Notes: a model not told the origin generated them from the letters alone. A stretch of DNA of 44,707 bases from Candidatus Staskawiczbacteria bacterium (GCA_903854535.1 CAINWR010000037.1:1-44707); one strand, 5' to 3'; shown: positions 23,378-40,728, counted from the stretch's first letter. Made by a program: numbers and translations.

Positions 23378-23905
23378 TTAGAATGGTATATCTTTAACAT
23401 CTATTTCATCAGAAGCTATATCTGATGCCATGTCAGAGCTAGATGGCATAGAATCTGCTGGTGGAGTATAGTTTTCTTCAATTATTGGAATTTCAGGTTC
23501 TTTGGCTGGTTGTTTTTCTGAGGACGATCCAAATGATTTTGGTGTATAATTATTGTTACCTGCTGTATTAGTTCCAGATCCTCTTGGCCCTAACTGCAAA
23601 ACCTCTGCAATTATTTCTGTTTTCCAGTGTTTTTGTCCTTGTTGATCTTGCCAGCTTCTTGTTTTGATTCTACCTTCCACAAAAGCTAAAGAGCCTTTTG
23701 TTAAGAATCTTGAAGCAACATCAGCTAATTTGCCAAAAGCTACAATATTGTGAAATTCAGCTTCTTCTTTTTTTTGACCTTGTGAATCAGTAAAATATCT
23801 ATTGGTAGCAATTGAGAAAGAAACAACAGGTTGACCTGATGGTAGAGATCTTACTTCTGGATCTCTTGTTAAATTACCTAAGACGAATGCTTTATTAAAA
23901 TTCAT
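23378..23905 (-). CDS. ssb: single-stranded DNA-binding protein
   Basis: OB-fold N-terminus (NKAFVLGNLTRDPEVRSLPSGQPVVSFSIATNR), a disordered linker and the acidic tail DIPF. Confidence 0.9.
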   Translation of the reverse strand: MNFNKAFVLGNLTRDPEVRSLPSGQPVVSFSIATNRYFTDSQGQKKEEAEFHNIVAFGKLADVASRFLTKGSLAFVEGRIKTRSWQDQQGQKHWKTEIIAEVLQLGPRGSGTNTAGNNNYTPKSFGSSSEKQPAKEPEIPIIEENYTPPADSMPSSSDMASDIASDEIDVKDIPF

Positions 23906-23907
23906 AT

Positions 23908-23975
23908 TAGTTTGTAGTTGGTAGTTTGTAGTTGGTAGAGATTAAAAAATCTACAAACTACTCACTATAAACTAC
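23908..23975. repeat. imperfect long hairpin built from GTAGTTT/GTAGTTG heptamer repeats
   Basis: tagtttgtagttggtagtttgtagttggtagag attaaaaaat ctacaaactactcactataaactac, in the rpsF-ssb intergenic region. Confidence 0.65.
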
Positions 23976-26002: not shown

Positions 26003-26049
26003 TATAAATTTGGTTCTTTTTTTTGTCCAACAATTTTACGAGGTGCAAA

Positions 26050-26517
26050 ATGAGCATGTGTATTGATAAGTGTGGCAAAGATGCTGGTCAGGTGGGTTAT
26101 TTCTCTTTTGAATATGTGGGTTTAACATTTAAGGTATTCAAGTCTGGCTTGGTGTGTTCTGATTGCAAAAAGAAACGTATTTTGCGTCACTTTGAGGCAA
26201 TAAATAATTTTCTGATTCATGTAGAACACAGTCGAGCCAGAATAAATTGGGAAATTTATCATCATATTGATTCTGGCGAATACGGCATGAGTTATGATAT
26301 AGATTCGATCAAGAATTGTCTGATGGCGATTGGAGTTTTTTCATTTTCCATGGAAGGGAATTGGGAAATTTTTTCTGAAACAATTAGCCTTAATCCGCGC
26401 ACAAATGCAGGTGTTCTGTATTTCACGCGTCATGAAGACGCTCAGAAATACGCCAATTTTTATTTCATTGGTGCGAGGTTTAATTGGGCCATTAGGCAAA
26501 TCGCAGGGCAGTCGTAA
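26050..26517 (+). CDS. G+C-enriched hypothetical protein with an N-terminal Cys cluster
   Basis: GAGGTG lies 5 nt upstream of the ATG at 26050 (the track's 26023 start is TTG). It has CIDKC...CSDC. No family recognised. Confidence 0.55.
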   Translation: MSMCIDKCGKDAGQVGYFSFEYVGLTFKVFKSGLVCSDCKKKRILRHFEAINNFLIHVEHSRARINWEIYHHIDSGEYGMSYDIDSIKNCLMAIGVFSFSMEGNWEIFSETISLNPRTNAGVLYFTRHEDAQKYANFYFIGARFNWAIRQIAGQS

Positions 26518-27618: not shown

Positions 27619-27646
27619 TTGACATTATATTACTATATGATATAAT
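27619..27646 (+). promoter_or_regulatory. sigma70-like promoter of DGR-1 target gene
   Basis: TTGACA at 27619-27624, a 16-nt spacer, then TATAAT at 27641-27646. Confidence 0.55.
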
Positions 27647-27675
27647 TAATAAATACACTCAGATGTTCTGTTTGT

Positions 27676-27710
27676 ATCCATTTGTGAGTAGCAAATGGAA
27701 GAATGTTTTT
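27676..27710 (+). promoter_or_regulatory. leader hairpin plus T-run (terminator-like) in the 5' UTR of DGR-1 target
   Basis: tccatttg tgagtag caaatgga forms an 8-bp stem followed by agaatgtttttt. It ends about 5 nt before the SD (GGGGA). Confidence 0.45.
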
Positions 27711-27725
27711 TGAAAGGGGAAAGCC

Positions 27726-28406
27726 ATGAGTAATGGCGATGCGGTGCTGGCTCGTCTGTTCAAACTTTGGGCGATGGTTTGCAAGCTTATCATGGATGGT
27801 AAGCGGAGCGCAGAACAAGTTTGCGAAGTTCTGCAGGTCATTGTCGATGAGCGACAAGTCAAGACCAAAGTTGAGGAGTGGTTTGTTTTTTACAAGGAGG
27901 TTTTTGGTCTTGTGCTCGATTTTTCGGAATTGAAAATTCCCGAGCGTCGACCCGGCTTTGATCGTCTGATTGTTGTGGCCCAAGGAATGACGCCACAGCG
28001 ATTGTTTGAGAAATGCCAAGAATTATTTTCGTCATGGAAGTGGACGGAAAAAAACCTTGATGAGATCATTGCGTCTGCACGAACTGCACAAAACGGTGCT
28101 TATGCCGTTTGGGTTCGTGATCGTGTGGAAGCAGATGAAGAAAACAAAAATCTGTCTGCCGACGATCTTTCTGTTAAAGGCGAGGCCGAAGAAACCCTTG
28201 AAGAACGGATACTTCATGAGTTGAAATATTTCCGAGAAACCGGAAAGCACTTGGATGTCCAAAATTGGACACTGTGCTCCGGCTCGCTCTATTCTGGTGG
28301 CCTTGTTCCGTGTACTAACTGGAGCAGTGACTGGTTCAAGGTCGTTTGGTTTCACCCCGATTTCTGCAATGGCGACTTGCGCGCCCGCTCCGCAGTTCCC
28401 CAGTAG
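27726..28406 (+). CDS. DGR-1 variable (target) protein, G+C-rich, no signal peptide
   Basis: 226-aa ORF with SD GGGGA. The last 40 codons are the VR. C-terminal scaffold: GxVPCTNWxSDxFKVxWxHPDxxNxxLRARS. Confidence 0.85.
   Translation: MSNGDAVLARLFKLWAMVCKLIMDGKRSAEQVCEVLQVIVDERQVKTKVEEWFVFYKEVFGLVLDFSELKIPERRPGFDRLIVVAQGMTPQRLFEKCQELFSSWKWTEKNLDEIIASARTAQNGAYAVWVRDRVEADEENKNLSADDLSVKGEAEETLEERILHELKYFRETGKHLDVQNWTLCSGSLYSGGLVPCTNWSSDWFKVVWFHPDFCNGDLRARSAVPQ
28281..28400 (+). repeat. DGR-1 variable region (VR)
   Basis: 120 nt, 103/120 identical to the TR. 16 differences fall at TR adenines and 1 non-A difference at 28398. Confidence 0.9.
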
Positions 28407-28426
28407 TCGTTCGCTTTTTCCCTCGT

Positions 28427-28465
28427 GTCGCTTTTGGTAATGGATTTACCGAAAGCGACTTTTTT
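28427..28465 (+). terminator. intrinsic terminator / post-VR hairpin
   Basis: gtcgcttttggtaa tggat ttaccgaaagcgac forms a 14-bp stem (one G:U) with a 5-nt loop and a T6 run. It starts 21 nt after the target stop codon. Confidence 0.8.
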
Positions 28466-28473
28466 GTTATAAT
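28465..28473 (+). promoter_or_regulatory. candidate extended -10 promoter for the TR-containing RNA
   Basis: TGtTATAAT lies immediately after the terminator T-run. The -35 is weak (ttaccg). Confidence 0.3.
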
Positions 28474-28656
28474 AAATTTGGCTAATACAGCCGGCCCGCC
28501 TTAGGCGAGGTGTCGGTTTGCCAAGAAAATGGGGAACTGCTTGCCTGATTTTAACGAGTTCTGACTCGGAATAACACTCCACAAGGATGGAGCGTAAACA
28601 CAGAAAATTTTGAAAAAGATTTTCGGTGAAACAGAAGAAATTTAGGCAAAATAATG

Positions 28657-28776
28657 GGCTCGCACTATTCTGGTGGCAATGTTCCGTGTACTAACTGGAA
28701 CAGTGACAAGTTCAAGGTCAATTGGAATCACCCCGATAACTACAATAGCAACTTGCGCGCCCGCTCCGAAGTTGCC
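28657..28776 (+). repeat. DGR-1 template repeat (TR)
   Basis: Non-coding copy of the VR. In the VR frame it would encode GSHYSGGNVPCTNWNSDKFKVNWNHPDNYNSNLRARSEVA, rich in AAY codons. The invariant GC block ACTTGCGCGCCCGCTCCG lies near the 3' end. Confidence 0.9.
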
Positions 28777-28783
28777 TAAAAAT

Positions 28784-28810
28784 CAAAAGGAGTTTTTAAA
28801 ACTCCTTTTG
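28784..28810. terminator. 12-bp hairpin 7 nt after TR-1; the 3-nt loop is the avd stop codon
   Basis: caaaaggagttt tta aaactccttttg. The loop at 28796-28798 is the complement of the avd-1 TAA. Confidence 0.6.
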
Positions 28811-29179
28811 TGTTAAAGAATTTATCCAATTATTTATATCTTTGGATATTTCTACTAAATAATTTTCTAGTTCAATATATTTTTTATCTTTAATAATTTG
28901 TAATTCCCAAGAAGTTCTTATCAGTAATTTTAAAGTTTCAACTTTTATATGAGCTGATTTTAAAGGTTTTAGTTTATAGCTTTTATTTTCAAAACGAACT
29001 TCGGTTAATATTTCAATAATGTCTAAACAAGTATTTTCAATTTTCATAAAAATACCAAATCTATCTTTCTTTAAAATTTTAAACGAAATAAAGTAAATCT
29101 TTTTGTAAAAATCACAAAATTTATGCAAAACAGGAATATTAAAATTTCCAAATGTCTGGGGGGGGGTATTATTTGCCAT
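28796..29179 (-). CDS. avd: Avd-like four-helix-bundle protein (DGR accessory variability determinant family)
   Basis: 127 aa, helical, paralog of 39385..39777. The shared pattern ...K.ETLK..L...WE...I.DKKYI.L...L.EI.K.....W fits four-helix-bundle (23S rRNA IVS-like) proteins. It is antisense to TR and RT. Confidence 0.7.
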   Translation of the reverse strand: MANNTPPQTFGNFNIPVLHKFCDFYKKIYFISFKILKKDRFGIFMKIENTCLDIIEILTEVRFENKSYKLKPLKSAHIKVETLKLLIRTSWELQIIKDKKYIELENYLVEISKDINNWINSLTQKEF

Positions 29180-30160
29180 AATATTTTTGAAAAAATTATT
29201 TCTCTTGAAAATTTATTCTCTGCATGGCGAGAGTTTAAAAAAGGAAGAACTAAGAAGAAAGATGTTTTGCAGTTTGAATTAAATTTAGAAGATAATATTT
29301 TTTCGCTTTATAATGAATTAAAAAATAAAATCTATTGTCATTTAAATTATACATCATTTTGTATAAAAGACCCAAAATTAAGAAAAATTCATAAAGCAAT
29401 AGTAAAAGACAGAGTTTTGCATCATGCTATTTTTAGAATTTTATACCCAATTTTTGATAGGTATTTTGTTTTTGATTCTTATTCATGTAGAAATGGCAAG
29501 GGAACATATGAGGCGATAACCCAATTAAATAAATTTACAAAAAAAGTTAGTAAAAATAATATAAGAAATTGTTATGTTTTAAAATGTGATATTAAAAAGT
29601 ATTTCGATTCAATAGATCAAGAAATTTTGCTAAATTTAATAAGAATAAAGATAAAAGATGAAAGTGCAATTTGGCTTGTTGAAAGGGTTATAAAAAGTTT
29701 TCCAGCAGGTTTGCCATTGGGAAATATAACTAGTCAACTTTTTGCAAATATTTACTTAAACGAGTTAGATCAATTTATAAAACATGCATTAAAACAAAGA
29801 TATTATATTCGCTATTGTGATGATTTTGTTGTTTTATCCGAAAATAAGGACTTTTTAGAGAATTTAGTTTTTAAAATTGATAATTTTTTGGAAAATAATT
29901 TGAAATTATCTTTACATAAAGGTAAAATAATAATAGAAAAATATAGGCAAGGAGTTGATTTTTTAGGATATAAAAGTTTTCCGAATTATAGAATTTTGCG
30001 AACCAAAACTAAGAAGAGGATTTTAGATAAGGCAAAAGAAAAGCTTGGAATAGAATCGTTAATTTCTTATTTGGGAATATTAAAGCATTGTAAATCAAGA
30101 AAAATTAAGATGAAATTACTTAAAAGTTATTTTTCTATTGATAAAATATACAAAATTTGA
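29123..30160 (+). CDS. DGR reverse transcriptase 1
   Basis: DGR signature LPLGNITSQLFANIYL ([LIV]GxxxSQ) and catalytic RYCDDFVV (YxDD). Clear paralog of 39757..40728. The first 57 nt overlap the avd-1 5' end on the opposite strand. Confidence 0.9.
   Translation: MQNRNIKISKCLGGGIICHNIFEKIISLENLFSAWREFKKGRTKKKDVLQFELNLEDNIFSLYNELKNKIYCHLNYTSFCIKDPKLRKIHKAIVKDRVLHHAIFRILYPIFDRYFVFDSYSCRNGKGTYEAITQLNKFTKKVSKNNIRNCYVLKCDIKKYFDSIDQEILLNLIRIKIKDESAIWLVERVIKSFPAGLPLGNITSQLFANIYLNELDQFIKHALKQRYYIRYCDDFVVLSENKDFLENLVFKIDNFLENNLKLSLHKGKIIIEKYRQGVDFLGYKSFPNYRILRTKTKKRILDKAKEKLGIESLISYLGILKHCKSRKIKMKLLKSYFSIDKIYKI
29158..29166. repeat. G9/C9 homopolymer inside the avd-1/RT-1 overlap
   Basis: ctgggggggggta encodes GGG in RT-1 and TPP (ACC CCC CCC) in avd-1. 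Confidence 0.9.
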
Positions 30161-30228: not shown

Positions 30229-30498
30229 ATGGTAATAAAAAAATCAAAAGGGAATAAGATAACAATCGATAAGCTTGCACAAATTATTAATGATGGTTTT
30301 AATGGGCAAATGAAATATATGGATGAAAAGTTTGAGAAAATGGGAAAAGATATGGGAGAGATGAAAAGTGATGTTTCGGCTCTGAAGAAAGATGTTAGAG
30401 ATATAAAAAATAATTTGCAGGAAAATGCTAAAACTATAAATAAGCTCGAAATGCGAGTTGATTATGTGGAAAATGTTCTAGCTGTTAAAAAAGATTAG
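30229..30498 (+). CDS. hypothetical coiled-coil protein
   Basis: 89-aa ORF with a heptad-like charged sequence (MGEMKSDVSALKKDVRDIKNNLQENAKTINKLEMRVDYVENV). Confidence 0.5.
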   Translation: MVIKKSKGNKITIDKLAQIINDGFNGQMKYMDEKFEKMGKDMGEMKSDVSALKKDVRDIKNNLQENAKTINKLEMRVDYVENVLAVKKD

Positions 30499-32512: not shown

Positions 32513-32761
32513 ATGAGTGATTACACTGTTCAAGGAAAAGGCAAAAGAGTTATGATCCAATTGCCAGGACATACTCATTCGATGCATTATGAAGTAGCGG
32601 CTTCAATGCTTAGCGTGAATATAGGTCGTCCTGTATTTGGCACTGAACAAGGCATGAGTTTTGATTGGTCGTATGTTGACGATAACAATGTCAACGCTCA
32701 ACTAAATCGCATAATGGAGGTTCGGCCTGATGCGATTATAACTTTTGCTGAACCGAGGTAA
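32513..32761 (+). CDS. G+C-enriched hypothetical small protein
   Basis: GAGGTGG lies 4 nt upstream of the ATG. The ORF encodes 82 aa, is followed by a terminator, and matches no family I recognise. Confidence 0.5.
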   Translation: MSDYTVQGKGKRVMIQLPGHTHSMHYEVAASMLSVNIGRPVFGTEQGMSFDWSYVDDNNVNAQLNRIMEVRPDAIITFAEPR

Positions 32762-32784
32762 TTTTTTTATGCCATCGTGGCAGT

Positions 32785-32810
32785 AGCCCGAAATTCCAAC
32801 GGGCTTTTTT
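32785..32810 (+). terminator. intrinsic terminator
   Basis: agcccg aaattccaa cgggct followed by T6. Confidence 0.65.
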
Positions 32811-32840
32811 GTTACCCAATATTTTATAGAATTTATTTCG

Positions 32841-32925
32841 TGGTGCCGCGGGAGGGAATCGAACCCTCAACCCTTTCGGGATGCGCTTCTGAGACGCACG
32901 CGTATTCCAGTTCCGCCACCGCGAC
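32841..32925 (-). tRNA. tRNA-Leu(CAG), class II with long variable arm, CCA encoded
   Basis: Reverse complement: GTCGCGG TG GCGG..CGC G TGCGT CTCAGAA GCGCA TCCCGAAAGGGTTG AGGGT TCGATTC CCTCC CGCGGC A CCA. It has a 7-bp acceptor stem (one G:U), anticodon loop CT-CAG-AA and a TTCGATT T-loop. Confidence 0.85.
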
Positions 32926-32954
32926 GTTTGTGTTAGATTTATCTTATCACAGAA

Positions 32955-33953
32955 TTATTTAGACATTTGCTTTTTGAAAGATTCGACCATATCTACTGGA
33001 GTAGGATCTATTTTTTGGTTCAAAGCTGTATAGTAAGAAACCCAATCACCTAAAAGTAAAGTTGAAAATATTTTAAACATCATAGAGCCATTTTTAATTT
33101 CTACAAATTCTGTAGTCTTGACTCCATATTTTTTAATCAAATTAGCTGTTAGCTTCATTCTTTTCTGAGTCCTTTCATGATCAGCTTGATCTTTTAAAAT
33201 AATTATAGCAAAATTTTTAGCCCCCAATTTTTTAATACCAGTGAATCCCACCATTTCATTGTGATTTAATTCTGGAAAAACATTGTAAAAGGCAGGAATT
33301 TTGGAGTTCTCATTAAATTTTATTTTCCAAATTCTAGCTACTGATTTAAAATTATTTGAAGCATAAATAATTGGTATTTTTTTATCAATTTTTTTAGCTA
33401 ATTTTTTACCTTCTTTTTCAAGCTCTAAATTTATATCTTTTAGATCTTCTGCTAAATCCATTATTTCAAAGGATATATCTTTTATTAATCCGCAATTAAT
33501 TAAGATTCTAATAAGTGATGAAAATAAATATCCTGTAGCTGATCTTGGCTGTATGCCTGAAGGGATTTTTGCAAAAGGGATATTATTTTGTTTTGATAAT
33601 TCTTCAAATTTACCACCTGAAGCAATAGCTATTACTTTCAAATTTTTATTTATAGCTGTTTGCAGAGATGATAAACCCTCTTCTGTGTTGCCAGAGTATG
33701 AGATGCATATTATTAAACTTAAACTATCTGCGAACTCAGGGAGGTTGTAGTCTCTGTGAATGTAAACGGGAATAGTTGTTGTAATTACTGAGGTGAGAAT
33801 ATTATAAGGTAGAGCAGAACCCCCAATACCACATATAATAATATTTTTGAAATCACCAGAAACTTTAATTTCATTTGCTAGATCTAGGCCAGCTTTTAAT
33901 TGATTTGGAGAATCAATTATTACTTTATGCATGTTTTGTTTATCTGTTGTCAT
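32955..33953 (-). CDS. bifunctional phosphoglucose/phosphomannose isomerase (SIS domain)
   Basis: IICGIGGSALP and ISYSGNTEE SIS motifs, with the remembered C-terminal PGI/PMI domain pattern. Confidence 0.7.
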   Translation of the reverse strand: MTTDKQNMHKVIIDSPNQLKAGLDLANEIKVSGDFKNIIICGIGGSALPYNILTSVITTTIPVYIHRDYNLPEFADSLSLIICISYSGNTEEGLSSLQTAINKNLKVIAIASGGKFEELSKQNNIPFAKIPSGIQPRSATGYLFSSLIRILINCGLIKDISFEIMDLAEDLKDINLELEKEGKKLAKKIDKKIPIIYASNNFKSVARIWKIKFNENSKIPAFYNVFPELNHNEMVGFTGIKKLGAKNFAIIILKDQADHERTQKRMKLTANLIKKYGVKTTEFVEIKNGSMMFKIFSTLLLGDWVSYYTALNQKIDPTPVDMVESFKKQMSK

Positions 33954-36627: not shown

Positions 36628-37980
36628 TTATTGATTAACTCTATTTTCTAGATTTTTCAAAAGATTTTGCTTTCTTAATTTTTTGTGATAAGTAATTGCA
36701 AATCTGTGGGCTTCATTATCAAGATTTTTAATTAAATTATAAATTTCTTGAGGCAGATTCTTCAAAGGAATAGGATTTTTTTGTCCCTCTATAAATAATT
36801 GTTGTTTGCCTTTGGCAATAGAAATAATCTTAATAGTTTGTAGTTTGTAGTTGGTAGTGAGTAGTTTATTTTTTATGTTGATTGCGACATTGATTTGACC
36901 TTTCCCCCCATCAACTAAAATTATTTCTGGATATGGCCAATCTTTGTGACTAAATCTTCTTTGCAGAACTTCAGAAAGCATTGCAATATCATTGGGCTCG
37001 TTTTTCATTTTTATGCGGAATTTTTTGTATTCAGCTTTGTTAGGTTTTCCATTTGTAAAAACAACCATAGAACCCACGGCAAATTTACCTTGAATATTTG
37101 AAATATCATAACACTCTATTCGGCCTGTAAATTGTAAAATTGGTGAGCTGTCCGACCGCTCGCCGACTTTGCTGTGGTTTATTACTCTTTCTAAAGCAAA
37201 AATTTGGTCGCGAATTTTACTCGCTCTTTCGAAATCTTGGTTTTTTGAGGCTAATTGCATTTCTTTTTTGAGCGATCTTAAAACTATAGAAGATTTTCCT
37301 TCTAAAACTAAAATAAGTTTCTTGATATTTGTTTTATATTCCCGAAGGTCCTCCGAAGCTTTAGGCGAAGGCGGATTTTCAAATAATTTAGGTCCAGGAC
37401 ATAGATCTAAATGGCACCACTGGCATTTTAGTTTTGAGTGTTTATTTGTTGTATAGTAAGGAAATACTTTTCTTAAAAATCTTATAGTTTTTTTTAGAGC
37501 GTTACCATCTACAAAAGGACCGATGTGTTTAGGTTGTAGTTTGTAGGAAGTAGCTTGTAGATTTTGATTTGGTTGATGGGTGATAAAAACATAAGGAATT
37601 TTAAGTTTACCCTGAGCGTAGCGAAGGGCGACATAAAAATAGTTTTTATCATCACGCCAAACTTGATTAAATTTGGGTTGATATTTCTTAATTAAATTAG
37701 CTTCTAAAATTAAAGCTTGTATTTCACTACCAGTTTCAATAAATCCAATTTTTTCAATTTGCTTTATATAAACATTATCTTTGTAGGTGGGGGATGAGAA
37801 ATGATTTTTAACTCTACTATTGATATTTATAGCTTTGCCAATATAGATAGGTTGTAGGTTGTAGCTAGTGGGTTGTAGGTTTTTGATGACTTGCGATTTT
37901 TTAGCATAAAACGCATAAACACCTGCTGTTGTTGGCAGGTTGTTTATATTTTTTACGCTTATAATCTTAAATTTATCCAT
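36628..37980 (-). CDS. uvrC: excinuclease ABC subunit C, short form without an obvious C-terminal (HhH)2
   Basis: GIY-YIG (GVYAFY...IYIGKAININSRVKNHF), UVR motif (FERASKIRDQIFALERV) and endonuclease domain (IECYDISNIQGKFAVGSMVVF...VDGGKGQINVA). Only 450 aa. Confidence 0.8.
   Translation of the reverse strand: MDKFKIISVKNINNLPTTAGVYAFYAKKSQVIKNLQPTSYNLQPIYIGKAININSRVKNHFSSPTYKDNVYIKQIEKIGFIETGSEIQALILEANLIKKYQPKFNQVWRDDKNYFYVALRYAQGKLKIPYVFITHQPNQNLQATSYKLQPKHIGPFVDGNALKKTIRFLRKVFPYYTTNKHSKLKCQWCHLDLCPGPKLFENPPSPKASEDLREYKTNIKKLILVLEGKSSIVLRSLKKEMQLASKNQDFERASKIRDQIFALERVINHSKVGERSDSSPILQFTGRIECYDISNIQGKFAVGSMVVFTNGKPNKAEYKKFRIKMKNEPNDIAMLSEVLQRRFSHKDWPYPEIILVDGGKGQINVAINIKNKLLTTNYKLQTIKIISIAKGKQQLFIEGQKNPIPLKNLPQEIYNLIKNLDNEAHRFAITYHKKLRKQNLLKNLENRVNQ
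36833..36870. repeat. in-frame CTACAAA-type heptamer repeat inside uvrC (encodes NKLLTTNYKLQTI)
   Basis: The + strand reads atagtttgtagtttgtagttggtagtgagtagtttatt. Its reverse complement shares aaactactcacta with the 23951-23975 hairpin arm. Confidence 0.6.
37532..37566. repeat. in-frame heptamer repeat inside uvrC (encodes QNLQATSYKLQP)
   Basis: The + strand reads ggttgtagtttgtaggaagtagcttgtagattttg. Confidence 0.6.
37850..37885. repeat. in-frame heptamer repeat inside uvrC GIY-YIG domain (encodes KNLQPTSYNLQP)
   Basis: The + strand reads ggttgtaggttgtagctagtgggttgtaggttttt. Confidence 0.6.
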
Positions 37981-38052: not shown

Positions 38053-38113
38053 TATGTTTATAAATTTTATTGTTCTTTTAATTCGGCGGTCGTAGCCAAA
38101 AGTTTTGAAAATC

Positions 38114-38139
38114 AGATAGACATCGGGTGTCTATCTTTT
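38114..38139 (+). promoter_or_regulatory. leader hairpin plus short T-run in the 5' UTR of DGR-2 target
   Basis: agatagaca tcggg tgtctatct forms a 9-bp stem followed by ttt, directly before the SD GAGGA. Confidence 0.45.
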
Positions 38140-38153
38140 GAGGATTTTTGGCT

Positions 38154-38882
38154 ATGACTGCTATTGGGGTGGTCAAGTTCCTGCTTCGGAATAGAGGTTA
38201 CTTCAAAGCGGGCAAATTAGCCCAAGGAGTGTGTGGGATGAGGAATGATTTTGCAATCGCCGGGATTGAGGTTGGTCAGTTGAATGCTCTTGTCAAGAAC
38301 CTCAAAGCTCAAATGAGTATTGAGGATTCAGTGGAAGCGGTTCGGCGCGTCAACTCGGGCGAGTGGATTGTTTCCGAACGAGTTCGTCGATGGTACGAGA
38401 AAGATGGCGTGATTCGGTTCGAAGTCACTGCCAATGGTTGGAGTGGTCAGCATTGGGTTGACTACTTCAAGGCCAATGGAGTGGATGTAGGGCAATACGC
38501 CAATTCGATTTTGTTGTCACCTGACTTCAAAATCACTCCGGGCGGAACCGTGGTCAAGGCCACTGTCTTTAAAGGAGAGATATTTTCGGACAGCGATCGA
38601 ATCACGGGAAAGATTCGTGCTTTCGTAGCCCGGTGCCAGCTGAAGCTATTAACGCCCAATACGGATTTGGCGTGTTTGATTCGAAAAGATCTCACGAACA
38701 AGGAAGTCCGCGATATGGGTTTGCGATGGATCATCGGGATGTCGGAGACTGTGAAGGATTCCGATGGCGGTCCGAGCTTGCTTTGCTCGCGCTGTGATGG
38801 TTCGGGTCCGTGGCTCACTGCGCGCTATGGCTTTCCCGAGTGCAGGTGGCTTCGCGGCATTGGGTTTGCCTTCGTCGAGTAA
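38154..38882 (+). CDS. DGR-2 variable (target) protein, G+C-rich, no signal peptide
   Basis: ATG at 38154, 9 nt after GAGGA (the track's 38148 start is TTG). The last 40 codons are the VR. The C-terminal scaffold ...SPWLxAxYxxPExRWxRxxGFAFVE fits a C-type-lectin-fold style ending. Confidence 0.85.
   Translation: MTAIGVVKFLLRNRGYFKAGKLAQGVCGMRNDFAIAGIEVGQLNALVKNLKAQMSIEDSVEAVRRVNSGEWIVSERVRRWYEKDGVIRFEVTANGWSGQHWVDYFKANGVDVGQYANSILLSPDFKITPGGTVVKATVFKGEIFSDSDRITGKIRAFVARCQLKLLTPNTDLACLIRKDLTNKEVRDMGLRWIIGMSETVKDSDGGPSLLCSRCDGSGPWLTARYGFPECRWLRGIGFAFVE
38759..38879 (+). repeat. DGR-2 variable region (VR)
   Basis: 121 nt, 100/121 identical to TR-2. All 21 differences are at TR adenines. Confidence 0.9.
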
Positions 38883-38944
38883 GTATCTTCGGGAAATTAG
38901 TTCTCGGCGCTTTGAATTTTTGTCCTTGTGCTTGGAACCTTTTA

Positions 38945-38984
38945 CCCTTTGCGTTTCTTCGGAATCGCAAAGGGCTTTTATTTT
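38945..38984 (+). terminator. intrinsic terminator after DGR-2 target
   Basis: ccctttgcg tttcttcggaat cgcaaaggg forms a 9-bp stem followed by cttttatttt. Confidence 0.75.
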
Positions 38985-39039
38985 CCATAAAACTTTGATA
39001 AACTAAAAATGGTAATAGGCGAATCTTGCTTGAGTTTAC

Positions 39040-39066
39040 GGATTCAGGCGGCCGAATCCAGTTTTT
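39040..39066 (+). terminator. second terminator-like hairpin in the VR-TR spacer
   Basis: ggattc aggcggcc gaatcc followed by agttttt. Confidence 0.45.
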
Positions 39067-39240
39067 GTGTGTTGAGAGCGTTTGCGATTATGGTTTCAAA
39101 CGGAGGATGCACAAAATACTAAAAAACCGAAGATACTTGGTGCGAAGAATTAAGGTATTTTAGATACCGAATAAGATTCAACTCTAAGATCGTTTCATAT
39201 AAAATTCAAAGGGTGGTGGTATAGATGATTTTTCGCAATT

Positions 39241-39361
39241 TTCCGATGGCAATCCGAACTTGCTTTACTCGAACTGTGATGATTCGAGTCCGTGGCTCAA
39301 TGCGAACTATGACAATCCCGAGAACAGGTGGAATCGCGACAATGGATTTGCCTTCGTCGAG
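39241..39361 (+). repeat. DGR-2 template repeat (TR)
   Basis: Non-coding copy of VR-2. In the VR frame it would encode SDGNPNLLYSNCDDSSPWLNANYDNPENRWNRDNGFAFVE, which has 9 Asn AAY codons. Confidence 0.9.
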
Positions 39362-39378
39362 CTACTCTCTTCATTTTT

Positions 39379-39400
39379 CTCTCCTTATTTTCTAGGAGAG
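39379..39400. terminator. 7-bp hairpin 17 nt after TR-2, straddling the avd-2 stop codon
   Basis: ctctcct tattttct aggagag. The avd-2 stop complement lies at 39385-39387. Confidence 0.5.
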
Positions 39401-39777
39401 TTTTGTTTTAAATTTTGTATTTGATTGTGCCAACCACCCAACATTTTACCAATTTCATTTAACTTTTCAGAAAGCAAAATATATTTTTTATCATCAATTG
39501 ATTTTGTTTCCCAAAGAATCATTAGAAATATTTTAAGTGTGTCAGTTTTTCTAATTGCTAATCTTATCCAAGGCAATTTCTCTTGTGGTTGCAAAAATCC
39601 AGCTGTAGTTGTAGTTTCTATTGCTTTAACAAAAAGATTATCTATTTTTTGTCCAAGCGAATATTTGTGTGTTTTTGGAATTTTATTTGAAAATTCATAC
39701 CAAACAAGATAGGTTTCTTTTAGTTTTTGCGAAATAGGTAATAATGAAACATTGTTATGAAAACTATTTTGCATCAT
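39385..39777 (-). CDS. avd: Avd-like four-helix-bundle protein
   Basis: 130 aa. KIPKTHKYSLGQKIDNLFVKAIE...LAIRKTDTLKIFLMILWETKSIDDKKYILLSEKLNEIGKMLGGW matches the remembered four-helix-bundle (TIGR02436-like) pattern. It is antisense to TR and RT. Confidence 0.75.
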   Translation of the reverse strand: MMQNSFHNNVSLLPISQKLKETYLVWYEFSNKIPKTHKYSLGQKIDNLFVKAIETTTTAGFLQPQEKLPWIRLAIRKTDTLKIFLMILWETKSIDDKKYILLSEKLNEIGKMLGGWHNQIQNLKQNSPRK

Positions 39778-40728
39778 AAATTTGAAGAAATAATTAATAT
39801 TGAAAATTTACTTTTAGCCTACAAGGAATTTGCTAAGGGAAAGAAAAACAGAATGGATGTTTTGGAATTTTCATTTATGCTAATGGATAATTTAATAGAG
39901 CTTCGAGACGACCTTGCCAATCATACTTACAAGCATCAAGATTATCAAGAATTTAAAATAAATGATCCAAAACCAAGAACAATCCACAAAGCAACAGTTA
40001 GAGACAGAATTTTGCACAGAGCAGTCTATAGGATTTTATATCCATTTTTTGATAAAAAGTTTATTGTAGATTCATATTCTTGTAGAAATAAAAAAGGAAC
40101 TCACAAAGCCATAAACAAATTTTCAGAATTTACCAACAAAGTTTCAAAGAACAACACTAAACAATGCTGGATTTTGAAATGTGATATTAAAAAGTTTTTT
40201 GCTAGTATAGACCAAAATATATTGCTGGAAATTTTAGAAAAATATATTGACGATAAAGATACAATAAACCTGCTCAAAGAAACAGTTTATAGTTTTAAAC
40301 TAGGCGGTTTGCCACTTGGAAATTTAACTTCACAACTTTTTAGTAATATTTATTTAAACGAATTTGATCAATTTATAAAGCATAAATTAAAAGCTAAATA
40401 TTATGTTCGCTATTGTGATGATTTTGTAATATTTTCACAAGATAAAAATTATTTAAAAAGTTTAATTCCAATAATTATTAATTATTTGCAAAATGTGTTA
40501 GGTCTCACCTTACACAAAGATAAAGTTTTTATCAAAACAATTTATTCTGGCGTAGACTATTTGGGCTGGGTAAATTTTAAAGATCATAGAATTTTACGAA
40601 GCAAAACAAAAACTAGAATGTTAAAACGAATAAAAGAAAACCCAAAATTAGAAACAATAAATTCTTATTTGGGATTATTAAATCATGGAAATGCATACAA
40701 AATTAGTTTATTATTAAACTATGATTAG
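39757..40728 (+). CDS. DGR reverse transcriptase 2
   Basis: LPLGNLTSQLFSNIYL and RYCDDFVIF. The first 21 nt overlap the avd-2 start on the opposite strand. Confidence 0.9.
   Translation: MKTILHHKFEEIINIENLLLAYKEFAKGKKNRMDVLEFSFMLMDNLIELRDDLANHTYKHQDYQEFKINDPKPRTIHKATVRDRILHRAVYRILYPFFDKKFIVDSYSCRNKKGTHKAINKFSEFTNKVSKNNTKQCWILKCDIKKFFASIDQNILLEILEKYIDDKDTINLLKETVYSFKLGGLPLGNLTSQLFSNIYLNEFDQFIKHKLKAKYYVRYCDDFVIFSQDKNYLKSLIPIIINYLQNVLGLTLHKDKVFIKTIYSGVDYLGWVNFKDHRILRSKTKTRMLKRIKENPKLETINSYLGLLNHGNAYKISLLLNYD

What the first reader, a model, noticed from the sequence alone, without database searches (positions are those of the whole stretch)
27619..30160. Complete DGR 1: TR/VR pair differs almost only at template adenines
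I aligned VR (28281-28400, the last 40 codons of CDS 27726..28406) with TR (28657-28776) by hand and found 103/120 identities. Sixteen of the 17 differences fall on TR adenines (16 of the 31 adenines in TR). Most are at codon positions 1-2 of AAY codons. TR reads GSHYSGGNVPCTNWNSDKFKVNWNHPDNYNSNLRARSEVA and VR reads GSLYSGGLVPCTNWSSDWFKVVWFHPDFCNGDLRARSAVPQ. The single non-adenine mismatch (VR C at 28398, TR G at 28774) lies at the extreme 3' end, after the invariant GC block ACTTGCGCGCCCGCTCCG. That is where IMH and IMH* are expected to differ. The nearby RT carries the DGR-specific LGNITSQ motif and YCDD, and an Avd-like gene is present. Together these match the established signature of mutagenic retrohoming.
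Basis: partly seen in the sequence, partly recalled or inferred. Interest (0 to 1): 0.8.

Follow-up and report, generated by a model that had tools for sequence, protein, structure and literature searches.

The report
Patescibacterial DGR with poly-G switch
This is a genuine diversity-generating retroelement of the type already catalogued in ultra-small (CPR) bacteria; the element itself is ordinary, but its template RNA has a conserved folded 5' domain and its two enzyme genes share a slippery run of G's, and I found neither feature described in the papers I could search.

Summary
VR 28281-28400 and TR 28657-28776 share 103/120 bases. Sixteen of the 17 differences sit on TR adenines (P=1.4e-10), all at codon positions 1-2.

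The RT (29123-30160) matches the Bordetella DGR RT best (E 1e-42). An Avd gene lies on the opposite strand (28796-29179). So this is a complete DGR.

Its layout, target(+)-TR(+)-avd(-)-RT(+), is published architecture "B3", which accounts for 90% of CPR DGRs. The 226-aa target has no known domain, no obvious signal peptide and 538 homologues, as reported for CPR DGR targets. A second, paralogous DGR lies at 38148-40728.

In a sibling species, 10 of the 14 base substitutions between two samples over 6.7 kb are in the VR, all 10 at TR adenines. That shows this DGR type is active.

Three further features emerged:
- TR appears to sit in its own ~340-nt RNA, inferred from a promoter-like site and a terminator-like hairpin. 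This RNA has a covarying multi-helix 5' domain that is not in Rfam.
- A 9-G tract (29158-29166) lies in the 57-nt overlap of the avd and RT starts. Tracts of 6-14 G occur in 62 of 90 related loci, and two near-clonal contigs differ by 9 vs 10 G. One slip frameshifts both genes.
- The target and TR are about 48-51% GC, in a 31% GC window.

The C-type lectin fold was not confirmed.

The parts
27619..27646 (+). Promoter-like site upstream of the target gene (TTGACA-16-TATAAT, TG-extended)
   Evidence: 12/12 consensus match. This is a consensus match only; function is inferred.
27726..28406 (+). DGR target gene (226 aa). It has a predicted N-terminal helical hairpin, a conserved alpha/beta core and a C-terminal VR. 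There is no Pfam/NCBIfam domain and no obvious signal peptide.
   Evidence: ORF. No family hit. 538 homologues; all those that carry a source name are Patescibacteria hypothetical proteins. The core is conserved and the last ~40 residues vary. AF2 model pLDDT 88.7. GC 48%, GC3 0.49, against about 0.17-0.25 in housekeeping neighbours.
28281..28400 (+). Variable region (VR), the last 40 codons of the target
   Evidence: 103/120 identical to TR; 16/17 mismatches at TR adenines.
28375..28392 (+). GC-rich invariant block at the 3' end of the VR (IMH-like); the identical copy in TR is at 28751-28768
   Evidence: Identical in VR and TR. Its role as the 3' boundary of information transfer is inferred from the Bordetella DGR.
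28427..28459 (+). 14-bp hairpin plus T-run, 20 nt after the target stop codon. It is terminator-like and is also a candidate for the structure that marks the VR as recipient.
   Evidence: Terminator scan. A hairpin of different sequence sits at the same place in most relatives (alignment). The role in target recognition is inferred by analogy with Guo et al. 2011 (PMC3240598), known to me from its title and abstract and from my own knowledge; I did not read the paper.
28445..28473 (+). Promoter-like site for the TR RNA (TTTACC-17-TATAAT with TG)
   Evidence: The -10 TATAAT-like box is largely conserved across the 15 aligned loci.
28478..28648 (+). Conserved structured RNA domain immediately 5' of TR. 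Helices: P1 28489-28498/28507-28518; P2 28543-28552/28637-28646, which closes a multi-helix junction; P4 28603-28611/28616-28624. Conserved single-stranded motifs: GAAACUGCUUG (GGAACUGCUUG in this window), AACNCAGA, CGGUGA.
   Evidence: RNAalifold: 30 pairs, 22 compensatory. 94.3% of cells paired, 0/500 shuffles reach the observed value, slid controls 35-56%. Covariance model R1 finds one hit in the window, at 28474-28666. An independent set of 27 loci gives 95.7% paired and 27/29 pairs compensatory. No Rfam family matches.
28657..28776 (+). Template repeat (TR), 31 adenines
28770..28778 (+). 3' end of TR, AGUUGCCU. Candidate long-range partner of the 5'-domain motif GGGGAACU (28530-28538). 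It contains the private substitution G28774.
   Evidence: Constrained MFE fold pairs the two segments. Across 21 loci, 81% of cells are paired and 4 pairs show compensatory change (e.g. L009 GACACU/AGUGUC, L053 GGAACU/AGUUCC), but 5 loci including this window have one mismatch. Support is only suggestive.
28784..28810 (.). 12-bp hairpin directly 3' of TR. It has a U-rich tail on the + strand and scores as terminator-like on the - strand (the avd stop codon is at 28796-28798).
   Evidence: The terminator scan calls it on the - strand only. A strong hairpin at the same place in all relatives.
28796..29179 (-). avd accessory gene (127 aa), transcribed divergently from RT
   Evidence: Pfam bAvd PF22296, E 5.5e-10, residues 19-121. 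NCBIfam NF033474 DGR Avd, E 3.4e-14, below cut-off. 34% identical to avd2.
29158..29166 (.). Poly-G tract (9 G) inside the 57-nt overlap of the RT start (ATG 29123) and the avd start (ATG 29179). It encodes GGG in RT and PP in Avd.
   Evidence: It is the only G/C run of 7 or more in the window. The same tract (7-12 G) occurs in 13 of 16 related genome loci, and a tract of 6-14 G in 49 of 74 metagenome loci. In all 12 tract-bearing genome loci that have avd, one length class (mod 3) puts RT and Avd in frame together; L018 has no avd and is in frame for RT. L053 (9 G) and L054 (10 G) differ otherwise by 2 SNPs in 6.7 kb.
29123..30160 (+). DGR reverse transcriptase (345 aa)
   Evidence: Pfam RVT_1, E 8.7e-21. 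Best PDB match is the Bordetella DGR RT 8ub7, E 9.8e-43. PLGNITSQLFAN aligns with bRT IGSLTSQLFAN; YCDD is present. No group II, retron or DRT model in NCBIfam reaches its cut-off.

Best explanation
Window 27619-30160 holds a complete chromosomal diversity-generating retroelement of the Patescibacteria (CPR) type, with layout target(+)-TR(+)-avd(-)-RT(+).

Shown:
- TR and VR differ almost only at TR adenines.
- The RT is DGR-type.
- An Avd gene is present.
- The same cassette in a sibling species differs between samples only at A-templated VR positions.

Inferred mechanism:
1. A roughly 340-nt non-coding RNA is transcribed from its own extended -10 promoter (about 28445-28473) and ends at the hairpin 28784-28810.
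2. This RNA consists of a conserved multi-helix 5' domain (28478-28648), then TR, then the 3' hairpin. The 5' domain probably binds the RT-Avd complex. It may also pair through GGAACU with the 3' end of TR (AGUUxCC), which would place the start site of reverse transcription in the complex.
3. RT-Avd copies TR into cDNA and misincorporates opposite adenines.
4. The cDNA replaces VR 28281-28400. The GC block 28375-28392 and the downstream hairpin 28427-28459 mark the recipient.
5. This rewrites 11 codons (six of them AAY) in the last 40 residues of an apparently cytoplasmic 226-aa protein of unknown function.

Expression of RT and Avd is gated together by a poly-G tract (29158-29166) in their overlapping 5' coding ends. 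With 9 G, as here, both are in frame. A gain or loss of one G frameshifts both. I read this as a slipped-strand on/off switch for the mutagenic machinery.
For: TR/VR statistics.

RT class: bRT E 9.8e-43 against group II about 1e-18; no other RT family reaches its cut-off. Avd.

The same architecture with mismatches overwhelmingly at TR adenines (only at adenines in 6 loci) occurs in 14 relatives from genome contigs. Published B3 architecture: TR-(avd)-RT makes up 90% of the CPR set (PMC5758913). CPR DGR clade 2 targets lack TM or known domains (PMC8144416).

Activity in a sibling species: L053 against L052 has 10 VR differences, all at TR A, with TR identical and only 4 substitutions elsewhere in 6.7 kb.

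RNA domain. It matches at E <= 0.01 in about 55 loci (46 of them near full-length and strong), always on the + strand 5' of TR. On an independent set, 27/29 pairs are compensatory. Promoter and terminators.

Poly-G tract.
Against: - No transcript, cDNA or read-level data exist for this organism. All contigs that carry this exact target protein have, by definition, the same VR, so current activity here is not shown.
- The ends of the RNA are inferred from consensus promoter and terminator patterns only.
- The 5'-domain/TR-3' pairing has a mismatch in this very window and in 4 other loci.
- In Bordetella the RNA part needed for priming lies 3' of TR, not 5'. The role I assign to the 5' domain is therefore by analogy, not homology.
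- Among loci where a frame could be assigned, the tract is most often one G too long (26 loci at +1, 13 in frame, 9 at -1 or +2). This could point to programmed frameshifting or transcriptional slippage rather than heritable switching.
- The target fold is not recognisably C-type lectin.
Confidence: 0.9

Rival explanations
1. The cassette is a real DGR but is currently silent or a relic in this genome. The VR/TR differences would then record past retrohoming only.
For: The exact target protein, and so the same VR, is found on all 10 contigs retrieved by the exact-sequence look-up, which by construction can only find this VR. L001 is 100% identical to the window over 5 kb. TR carries a private substitution (G28774) that has not been copied to the VR and that weakens the predicted 5'-domain/TR pairing.
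Against: RT and Avd are full-length and in frame (9 G). Promoter-like sites, the RNA domain (158 bits against R1) and the hairpins are intact. The sibling species shows recent A-restricted VR turnover. The look-up was by exact protein sequence, so variants with a different VR could not have been found.
Confidence: 0.25
2. The poly-G tract is not a heritable on/off switch. Instead it would be a site of programmed +1 ribosomal frameshifting or transcriptional slippage that keeps RT and Avd at low constitutive levels, whatever the DNA tract length.
For: Out-of-frame tracts are mostly one G longer than the in-frame length: 7 of 9 in genome loci and 19 of 26 in metagenome loci. That bias is not expected from unbiased switching. 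From general knowledge, CCC-C and GGG-G runs are shift-prone.
Against: In-frame alleles exist in 13 loci, including this window. Tract length differs (9 vs 10 G) between near-clonal contigs. One assembly breaks in an N-gap exactly at the tract. From general knowledge, expansion-biased slippage around 9-10 G is known from Campylobacter poly-G loci. The two mechanisms are not exclusive.
Confidence: 0.25
3. The poly-G tract is an assembly or sequencing artefact, or a neutral consequence of encoding Gly-Gly-Gly and Pro-Pro.
For: Homopolymers are error-prone in short-read data. All sequences used here are metagenome assemblies.
Against: The tract sits at the same site in 62 of 90 loci from many projects and sequencing batches. 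It is the only G/C run of 7 or more in a 31% GC, 44.7-kb window. By my own estimate from the window's composition, only about 0.005 nine-G runs are expected by chance. An AT-rich genome would not normally use GGG three times in a row for glycine. The tract also occurs in loci that have no avd (L018, L060, L062, L064, L075, L085).
Confidence: 0.05
4. The repeat pair is an ordinary duplication diverging by chance, and the RT belongs to a group II intron, retron or defence RT unrelated to it.
For: NCBIfam's best-scoring model for the RT is group II intron RT/maturase (143 bits).
Against: That score is far below the model's cut-off of 300, and NCBIfam returned no DGR-RT model among its hits. bRT is the best PDB hit by 24 orders of magnitude. 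The A-bias has P=1.4e-10. The protein is 345 aa, which I judge too short to hold a group II maturase/endonuclease extension, and Pfam finds only RVT_1. Avd is adjacent. The same pattern recurs in 14 relatives.
Confidence: 0.01

Closest known systems
CPR/Patescibacteria DGRs: architecture B3 'TR-(avd)-RT' (Wu et al. 2018, PMC5758913) and DGR clade 2 (Roux et al. 2021, PMC8144416)
   Same: Layout with avd on the reverse strand between TR and RT. Patescibacterial host. Small target with no TM segment or known domain. A C-terminal VR that falls in no named VR class. Several paralogous target genes in some related genomes. The closest relative (L002, Staskawiczbacteria RIFOXYD1_FULL_32_13) comes from the groundwater data set those surveys used.
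   Different: Nothing in the element's overall kind differs. Three features were absent from the papers I could search or read: the covarying 5' RNA domain, the apparent separate transcription unit for TR, and the poly-G tract in the avd/RT overlap. Paul et al. 2017 was not available to me.
Bordetella phage BPP-1 DGR (mtd-avd-TR-brt)
   Same: Adenine-specific TR-to-VR transfer. RT homologous to bRT (E 9.8e-43) with the same motif-4 signature. Avd four-helix-bundle accessory protein. GC-rich block at the 3' end of the VR followed by a hairpin.
   Different: In BPP-1 all genes are on one strand, and the RNA element needed for priming (Sp) lies 3' of TR and runs into brt. Here avd is inverted, TR is followed at once by a terminator hairpin, and the conserved structured RNA lies 5' of TR. 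The BPP-1 target is a phage tail-fibre C-type lectin protein; here it is a chromosomal protein with no obvious signal peptide and an unrecognised fold. BPP-1 has no poly-G tract that I know of (own knowledge).
Poly-G/C contingency loci of Campylobacter, Neisseria and Haemophilus (slipped-strand phase variation)
   Same: A homopolymeric G tract of 6-14 nt near the 5' end of a coding region. Length differs between near-clonal populations. A change of one base toggles the reading frame.
   Different: The classical loci switch surface or restriction-modification genes. Here one tract sits in two overlapping, divergently read ORFs and would switch a mutagenic retroelement's two enzymes together. 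Reversible switching has not been measured.
DGR2 in the same window (38148-40728)
   Same: Same B3 layout. 21 A-site TR/VR mismatches. GC-rich target and TR. RT 53% and Avd 34% identical to those of DGR1.
   Different: Unrelated target sequence. No match to the 5' RNA model R1. No poly-G tract.

Membership tests
Diversity-generating retroelement (DGR) | Two near-identical repeats (TR and VR) whose differences fall almost only on adenines of one copy | tested here: met
   103/120 identical; 16/17 mismatches at TR A; P=1.4e-10.
Diversity-generating retroelement (DGR) | VR lies inside a protein-coding gene, usually at its 3' end, with changes at codon positions 1-2 (AAY codons) | tested here: met
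   VR is the last 40 codons of CDS 27726-28406. All 16 changes are at codon positions 1 or 2, and 10 of them are in AAY codons.
Diversity-generating retroelement (DGR) | Adjacent RT of the DGR clade (motif 4 (I/L)GxxxSQ; closest to bRT; no maturase/endonuclease domains) | tested here: met
   Best PDB hit is 8ub7 bRT, E 9.8e-43, against group II at about 1e-18. PLGNITSQ and YCDD are present. The protein is 345 aa with RVT_1 only. No full RT phylogeny was built.
Diversity-generating retroelement (DGR) | Accessory gene avd (or another known accessory gene) | tested here: met
   Pfam bAvd, E 5.5e-10, just at its gathering score (40.1 against 40). NCBIfam DGR Avd, E 3.4e-14, below cut-off (53 against 80). 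The gene is on the minus strand.
Diversity-generating retroelement (DGR) | IMH-like GC-rich element at the 3' end of the VR, a non-identical IMH* in TR, and a downstream inverted repeat | tested here: inconclusive
   The GC block 28375-28392 is identical in VR and TR, and a hairpin lies at 28427-28459. The only non-A difference 3' of the block (C28398/G28774) is private to this genome and absent in relatives. No conserved IMH/IMH* distinction can therefore be defined. The flanks diverge completely after 28400/28776.
Diversity-generating retroelement (DGR) | Ongoing A-restricted VR variation in populations | tested here: met
   Met for a sibling species: L052 against L053 shows 10/10 VR differences at TR A. 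It could not be tested for the window's own organism because no reads were available. The look-up by exact protein can only return the same VR.
Diversity-generating retroelement (DGR) | VR displayed on a C-type lectin (or Ig-like) fold | tested here: inconclusive
   AF2 model pLDDT 88.7, pTM 0.80. Foldseek finds nothing with E < 0.4 in PDB or BFVD. The only C-type lectin matches are 35-37 columns long with E > 3. A profile search of PDB sequences is negative. No Pfam hit.
CPR DGR, architecture B3 / DGR clade 2 | Order TR-(avd)-RT with avd on the reverse strand; Patescibacterial host | tested here: met
   Coordinates. Among homologues and related loci that carry a taxon name, most are labelled Patescibacteria/Parcubacteria (a few MAG records carry other labels). 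Definition taken from PMC5758913. Clade 2 membership by RT tree was not tested.
Slipped-strand (homopolymer) phase-variable locus | Homopolymeric tract of about 7 nt or more within or just upstream of the coding region, whose length sets the reading frame | tested here: met
   9 G at 29158-29166 lies inside both ORFs. Changing the tract length in silico by one G frameshifts both RT and Avd.
Slipped-strand (homopolymer) phase-variable locus | Tract length polymorphic within a strain or population, with reversible switching | tested here: inconclusive
   L053 (9 G) against L054 (10 G) have otherwise 2 SNPs in 6.7 kb. The gene calls change from 345/127 aa to 298/83 aa. There is an N-gap at the tract in L056. 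No read-level data exist, no rate was measured, and nothing is available for the window's own population.
Rfam RNA families | Match to any curated covariance model in 28380-29200 | tested here: not met
   Nothing reaches gathering score in the window except a tRNA. With the permissive search, the only matches have E >= 2.9.

The most novel reading that the evidence does not exclude
CPR DGRs of this subclade would be stochastically gated hypermutators. A hypermutable poly-G tract sits in the overlapping 5' coding ends of the divergent avd and RT genes, so a single-base slip turns the whole mutagenic machinery on or off. The template would be an autonomous ~340-nt RNA. Its conserved multi-helix 5' domain, rather than a 3' spacer as in Bordetella, would recruit RT-Avd and clamp the 3' end of TR. 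I found neither feature in the searchable literature or in Rfam.
Probability: 0.35. Interest if true: 0.7.

Novelty: new member of a known kind. Interest (0 to 1): 0.45.

Why it matters
As a DGR, this adds one more member to a well-catalogued class and would not surprise a specialist. Its value lies in what the locus and its roughly 130 relatives show about how CPR DGRs are built and controlled.

1. There is a strongly covarying RNA domain 5' of TR, with about 55 model matches (46 strong, near full-length), no Rfam family and a usable covariance model. It gives a concrete handle on how an RT-Avd complex recognises its template when avd is inverted and there is no 3' spacer.
2. The poly-G tract shared by the RT and Avd start regions suggests that targeted hypermutation is itself switched on and off by a second, simpler hypermutable device. 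That would help explain why some assemblies of one population have intact RT/Avd and others truncated ones. It also makes the regulation of DGR activity in uncultivated bacteria testable from read data alone.
3. The target family (538 homologues, no known domain, no obvious signal peptide, confident model with no significant structural neighbour) is a defined candidate for the open question of whether CPR DGR targets are truly non-membrane proteins on a new scaffold.

Tried and rejected
- Rfam, at gathering score and with the permissive search: no family for the TR-flanking RNA.
- Pfam, NCBIfam and PADLOC on the target: no hit. Pfam on target2: no hit.
- Foldseek of the full target model against PDB and BFVD: no significant match, so the C-type lectin idea could be neither confirmed nor excluded.
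- Profile search of PDB sequences with the family alignment: nothing.
- Alignment of the DGR1 and DGR2 spacers, and a search of the window with model R1: DGR2 has no related 5' domain.
- A local GGCU...AGCC hairpin at 28481-28493 was considered. I rejected it in favour of P1 because only P1 covaries.
- Horizontal transfer of the whole cassette as the cause of the GC-rich island was rejected. avd and RT in the same cassette are AT-rich like the host, and target, Avd and RT identities fall together across relatives. The cause remains unexplained.
- Paul et al. 2017 (PMC5436926) could not be read. Claims that the RNA domain and the poly-G tract are unreported therefore rest only on the searchable library.
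- Looking for further contigs of the window's own organism with other VRs or tract lengths gave only identical copies.

Full report
**1. The observation**

I re-aligned the two stretches without gaps. VR 28281-28400 and TR 28657-28776 lie 376 nt apart and share 103 of 120 bases. Sixteen of the 17 mismatches are at TR adenines, and TR has 31 A.

All 16 A-site changes fall on codon position 1 or 2 of CDS 27726-28406. Ten of them are in AAY codons. The single non-A mismatch is VR C28398 against TR G28774. The block ACTTGCGCGCCCGCTCCG is identical in both copies.

The repeat finder reports the same pair independently (D3). The hypergeometric probability of such a concentration on adenines is 1.4e-10. 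Similarity stops abruptly at 28281/28657 and at about 28400/28776.

**2. The genes**

- The RT ORF 29123-30160 (345 aa) hits Pfam RVT_1.
- Its best solved relative is the Bordetella phage DGR RT (8ub7, E 9.8e-43). The next hits are group II intron RTs at about 1e-18.
- In that alignment PLGNITSQLFAN lines up with bRT IGSLTSQLFAN. YCDD is present.
- No group II, retron or DRT model in NCBIfam reaches its cut-off.
- ORF 28796-29179 on the minus strand is an Avd: Pfam bAvd E 5.5e-10 and NCBIfam DGR Avd E 3.4e-14, the latter below cut-off.
- The target (226 aa) has no Pfam, NCBIfam or PADLOC hit.

The interpretation "complete DGR" is therefore supported.

**3. Which kind of DGR**

The window is 30.7% GC and carries typical Patescibacteria genes: rpsF, phosphoglucomutase, trpS and RNase J.

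The target has 538 homologues. All those that carry a source name are hypothetical proteins of Parcubacteria/Patescibacteria, about 230 aa long. They share a strongly conserved core and a C-terminal 40 residues that vary at the A-templated positions.

A scan of one genome per species returned 50 loci. Sixteen of them carry an RT next to the target. Fourteen of those have a clear TR/VR pair whose mismatches fall overwhelmingly on TR adenines (only on adenines in six), and 12 show the full order target(+)-TR(+)-avd(-)-RT(+).

This is the published architecture B3, "TR-(avd)-RT". [quoted passage not shown] 2018, PMC5758913). Roux et al. [quoted passage not shown] The element is thus a typical member of a known, catalogued class.

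A second cassette of the same layout lies 10 kb away:
- target2 38148-38882, VR2 38759-38879, TR2 39241-39361;
- avd2 39385-39777 (minus strand), RT2 39757-40728;
- 21 A-site mismatches;
- RT 53% and Avd 34% identical to DGR1, targets unrelated in sequence.

**4. Is this type active?**

The exact target protein occurs on about 10 contigs. Because the look-up is by identity, it can only return the same VR. L001 is identical to the window.

Three JGI samples hold a sibling species: L052, L053 and L054. It has about 80% nt identity to the window and the same gene order.

L053 and L052 differ at 14 bases in 6.7 kb, plus the one-base G-tract indel described in section 6. Ten of the substitutions are in the VR. 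All ten lie at positions where TR has A, and TR itself is identical in the three contigs. It could not be run on the window's own organism.

**5. The template RNA**

The 250 nt between the target stop and TR are not a featureless spacer. Aligning 15 loci shows three elements:
- a hairpin with a T-run after the target (28427-28459 here);
- a largely conserved extended -10 box (TGTTATAAT, 28465-28473);
- a conserved domain of about 170 nt that ends 8-12 nt before TR.

RNAalifold predicts 30 pairs, 22 of them with compensatory changes. For three helices, 94.3% of cells pair. None of 500 shuffles reaches any of the five measures, and sliding the partners drops pairing to 35-56%.

A covariance model built from this alignment (R1) gave these results:
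- It hits the window once, at 28474-28666, and not at DGR2.
- It finds the domain in 10 further genome loci and in 30 of 80 metagenome RT loci.
- Every one of these hits is on the + strand, 5' of TR.

On 27 loci that were not used to build the model, 95.7% of cells pair and 27 of 29 pairs show compensatory change. That alignment is fitted to the model, so it leans towards the structure.

In the window the helices are:
- P1 28489-28498 / 28507-28518;
- P2 28543-28552 / 28637-28646, which closes a junction that also holds two variable hairpins;
- P4 28603-28611 / 28616-28624.

Rfam has no matching family.

Directly 3' of TR, every locus has a strong hairpin followed by U's (28784-28810 here). 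On the minus strand the same hairpin scores as terminator-like, and the avd stop codon lies within it.

I infer a separate non-coding RNA of about 340 nt: 5' domain, TR, then terminator. This differs from Bordetella, where the structured part needed for priming lies 3' of TR. That comparison rests on Handa et al. 2018 (PMC6182149), which I saw by title and abstract only, and on my own knowledge.

A candidate long-range helix joins the conserved motif GGAAACU of the 5' domain to AGUUUCC at the very 3' end of TR.
- It appears spontaneously in the constrained fold of the window (28530-28538 with 28770-28778).
- It shows compensatory changes in L009, L053, L017, L015 and L025.
- Five loci, including the window, have one mismatch. 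Overall 81% of cells pair.

I rate this helix as suggestive only. Relatives have C there in both TR and VR. It is therefore a private TR substitution, not an IMH/IMH* rule.

**6. The poly-G tract**

The RT start (ATG 29123, + strand) and the avd start (ATG 29179, minus strand) overlap by 57 nt. A run of nine G's (29158-29166) lies in that overlap. It is the only G/C run of 7 or more in the whole window. It encodes GGG in RT and PP in Avd.

The same tract, 7-12 G long, sits at the same place in 13 of 16 RT-bearing genome loci. A tract of 6-14 G occurs in 49 of 74 metagenome loci with enough upstream sequence, including loci without avd.

I changed the tract length in silico. In each of the 12 tract-bearing genome loci that have avd, exactly one length class (mod 3) restores two things at once:
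- an RT with a conserved N-terminal peptide (M-x-Q/N-R-x-I-K...GGG);
- an Avd with its own conserved N-terminus (M..FNTPP).

L018 has no avd and is in frame for RT.

The observed states are as follows.

| Set | In frame | Out of frame | Of these, one G too long | No frame assigned |
|---|---|---|---|---|
| Genome loci (13 with tract) | 4 (window, L017, L030, L018) | 9 | 7 | 0 |
| Metagenome loci (49 with tract) | 9 | 26 | 19 | 14 (no ATG within 60 nt) |

Most tellingly, L053 and L054 differ over 6.7 kb by two SNPs and by 9 against 10 G. The gene caller accordingly gives RT/Avd of 345/127 aa in one and 298/83 aa in the other. One assembly of the L002 organism breaks in an N-gap exactly at the tract.

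I read this as a slipped-strand switch that gates both enzymes together. The excess of "+1" alleles leaves room for programmed frameshifting or transcriptional slippage as a rival or an added mechanism.

None of the papers in the searchable library links DGRs with a homopolymer tract or with phase variation of the RT. Paul et al. 2017 was not available.

**7. The target protein**

AF2 with the family alignment gives a confident model (pLDDT 88.7, pTM 0.80). It has an N-terminal helical hairpin, an alpha/beta core, and beta strands formed by the VR.

Foldseek finds no match with E < 0.4 in PDB or BFVD. C-type lectins appear only as fragments of 35-37 residues with E > 3. A family profile finds no solved relative. 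The C-type lectin fold is therefore unconfirmed, and the function remains unknown.

Some relatives carry several paralogues without an adjacent RT: STA_35 has four and bin-329 at least six.

**8. Composition**

| Segment | GC |
|---|---|
| Target | 48% (GC3 0.49) |
| Spacer | 41% |
| TR | 51% |
| avd | 22% (GC3 0.16) |
| RT | 24% (GC3 0.17) |
| Whole window | 31% |

DGR2 shows the same split, as do all 14 relatives with a clear TR/VR pair.

Target, Avd and RT identities fall together across relatives. Separate horizontal origin of the target is therefore unlikely. I have no tested explanation.

**9. Verdict**

The finding is real and correctly interpreted. As a DGR it is a new member of a known kind and would not surprise a specialist.

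Three things raise its interest above routine. Neither of the first two appears in the literature I could search.
- The conserved 5' RNA domain, which is well supported.
- The shared poly-G tract. It is well supported as a conserved, length-variable feature; its function as a switch is inferred.
- The unexplained GC split.

Noticed in passing
window 38148-40728: A second complete DGR with the same layout: target2 38148-38882, VR2 38759-38879, TR2 39241-39361, avd2 39385-39777 (-), RT2 39757-40728. It has 21 A-site mismatches. RT is 53% and Avd 34% identical to DGR1, and the target is unrelated. It has no poly-G tract and no match to RNA model R1, so it presumably uses a different TR-flanking RNA.
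   Followed up: partly
window 27700-28800 and 38100-39400: Both target genes, their spacers and their TRs form GC-rich islands (41-51% GC in DGR1 and 37-51% in DGR2, with both spacers at the low end; GC3 0.49-0.57) in a 31% GC window. The avd and RT genes of the same cassettes are 22-27% GC (GC3 about 0.17). The same split is seen in all 14 related cassettes with a clear TR/VR pair. The cause is unknown.
   Followed up: partly
window 29123-29179: The RT and avd ORFs overlap head-to-head by 57 nt. Their mRNAs would therefore be complementary at the 5' ends, and each promoter must lie inside the other gene. This allows antisense or transcriptional interference in addition to the poly-G effect.
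   Followed up: no
L007, L008, L011, L048 (one MAG, STA_35); L019, L026, L028, L035 (bin-329; three tandem copies in L019): Some Patescibacteria genomes carry four to six paralogues of the target family with no RT within 5 kb. They may be remote targets served in trans or non-diversified copies. I did not check whether their 3' ends match a TR elsewhere in the genome.
   Followed up: no
window 28407-28426 and alignment: Between the target stop codon and the downstream hairpin, relatives share a pyrimidine-rich motif, often a repeated CTTGTACCCTT. In the window it reads TTTTTCCCTCGTG. It occurs after VR but not after TR, so it is a candidate for the element that marks the VR as recipient.
   Followed up: no
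window 26023-26517: A 164-aa ORF with no Pfam hit and raised GC3 (0.39) lies between the phosphoglucomutase and trpS genes. It is absent from the syntenic sibling loci L052-L054, so it is probably a recent insertion.
   Followed up: partly
window 30229-30498: An 89-aa coiled-coil ORF lies directly after the RT. An ORF of 96 aa sits in the same position in the sibling species (L052-L054) but not in L055. It shows only weak coiled-coil Pfam matches. Whether it belongs to the DGR is unknown.
   Followed up: no
window 23897-23955, 36823-36874, 37530-37570, 37848-37888: There are repeated copies of a TAGTTTGTAGTTGGTAG-like motif. Three lie inside the 450-aa ORF 36628-37980 (minus strand), where they encode repeated '..SYKLQP..' peptides. 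One lies next to rpsF. They look like a short dispersed or intragenic repeat.
   Followed up: no
window 27677-27699: A 9-bp hairpin (TCCATTTGTGAGTAGCAAATGGA) lies between the consensus promoter and the start codon of the target gene. It may be a 5'-UTR regulatory structure. The region is read through as coding in the longer gene calls of relatives (P0004).
   Followed up: no
window 32513-32962: An 82-aa ORF with raised GC (42-45%) lies next to a tRNA gene (32844-32925, minus strand, the only Rfam hit in the window). The ORF has no family match.
   Followed up: no
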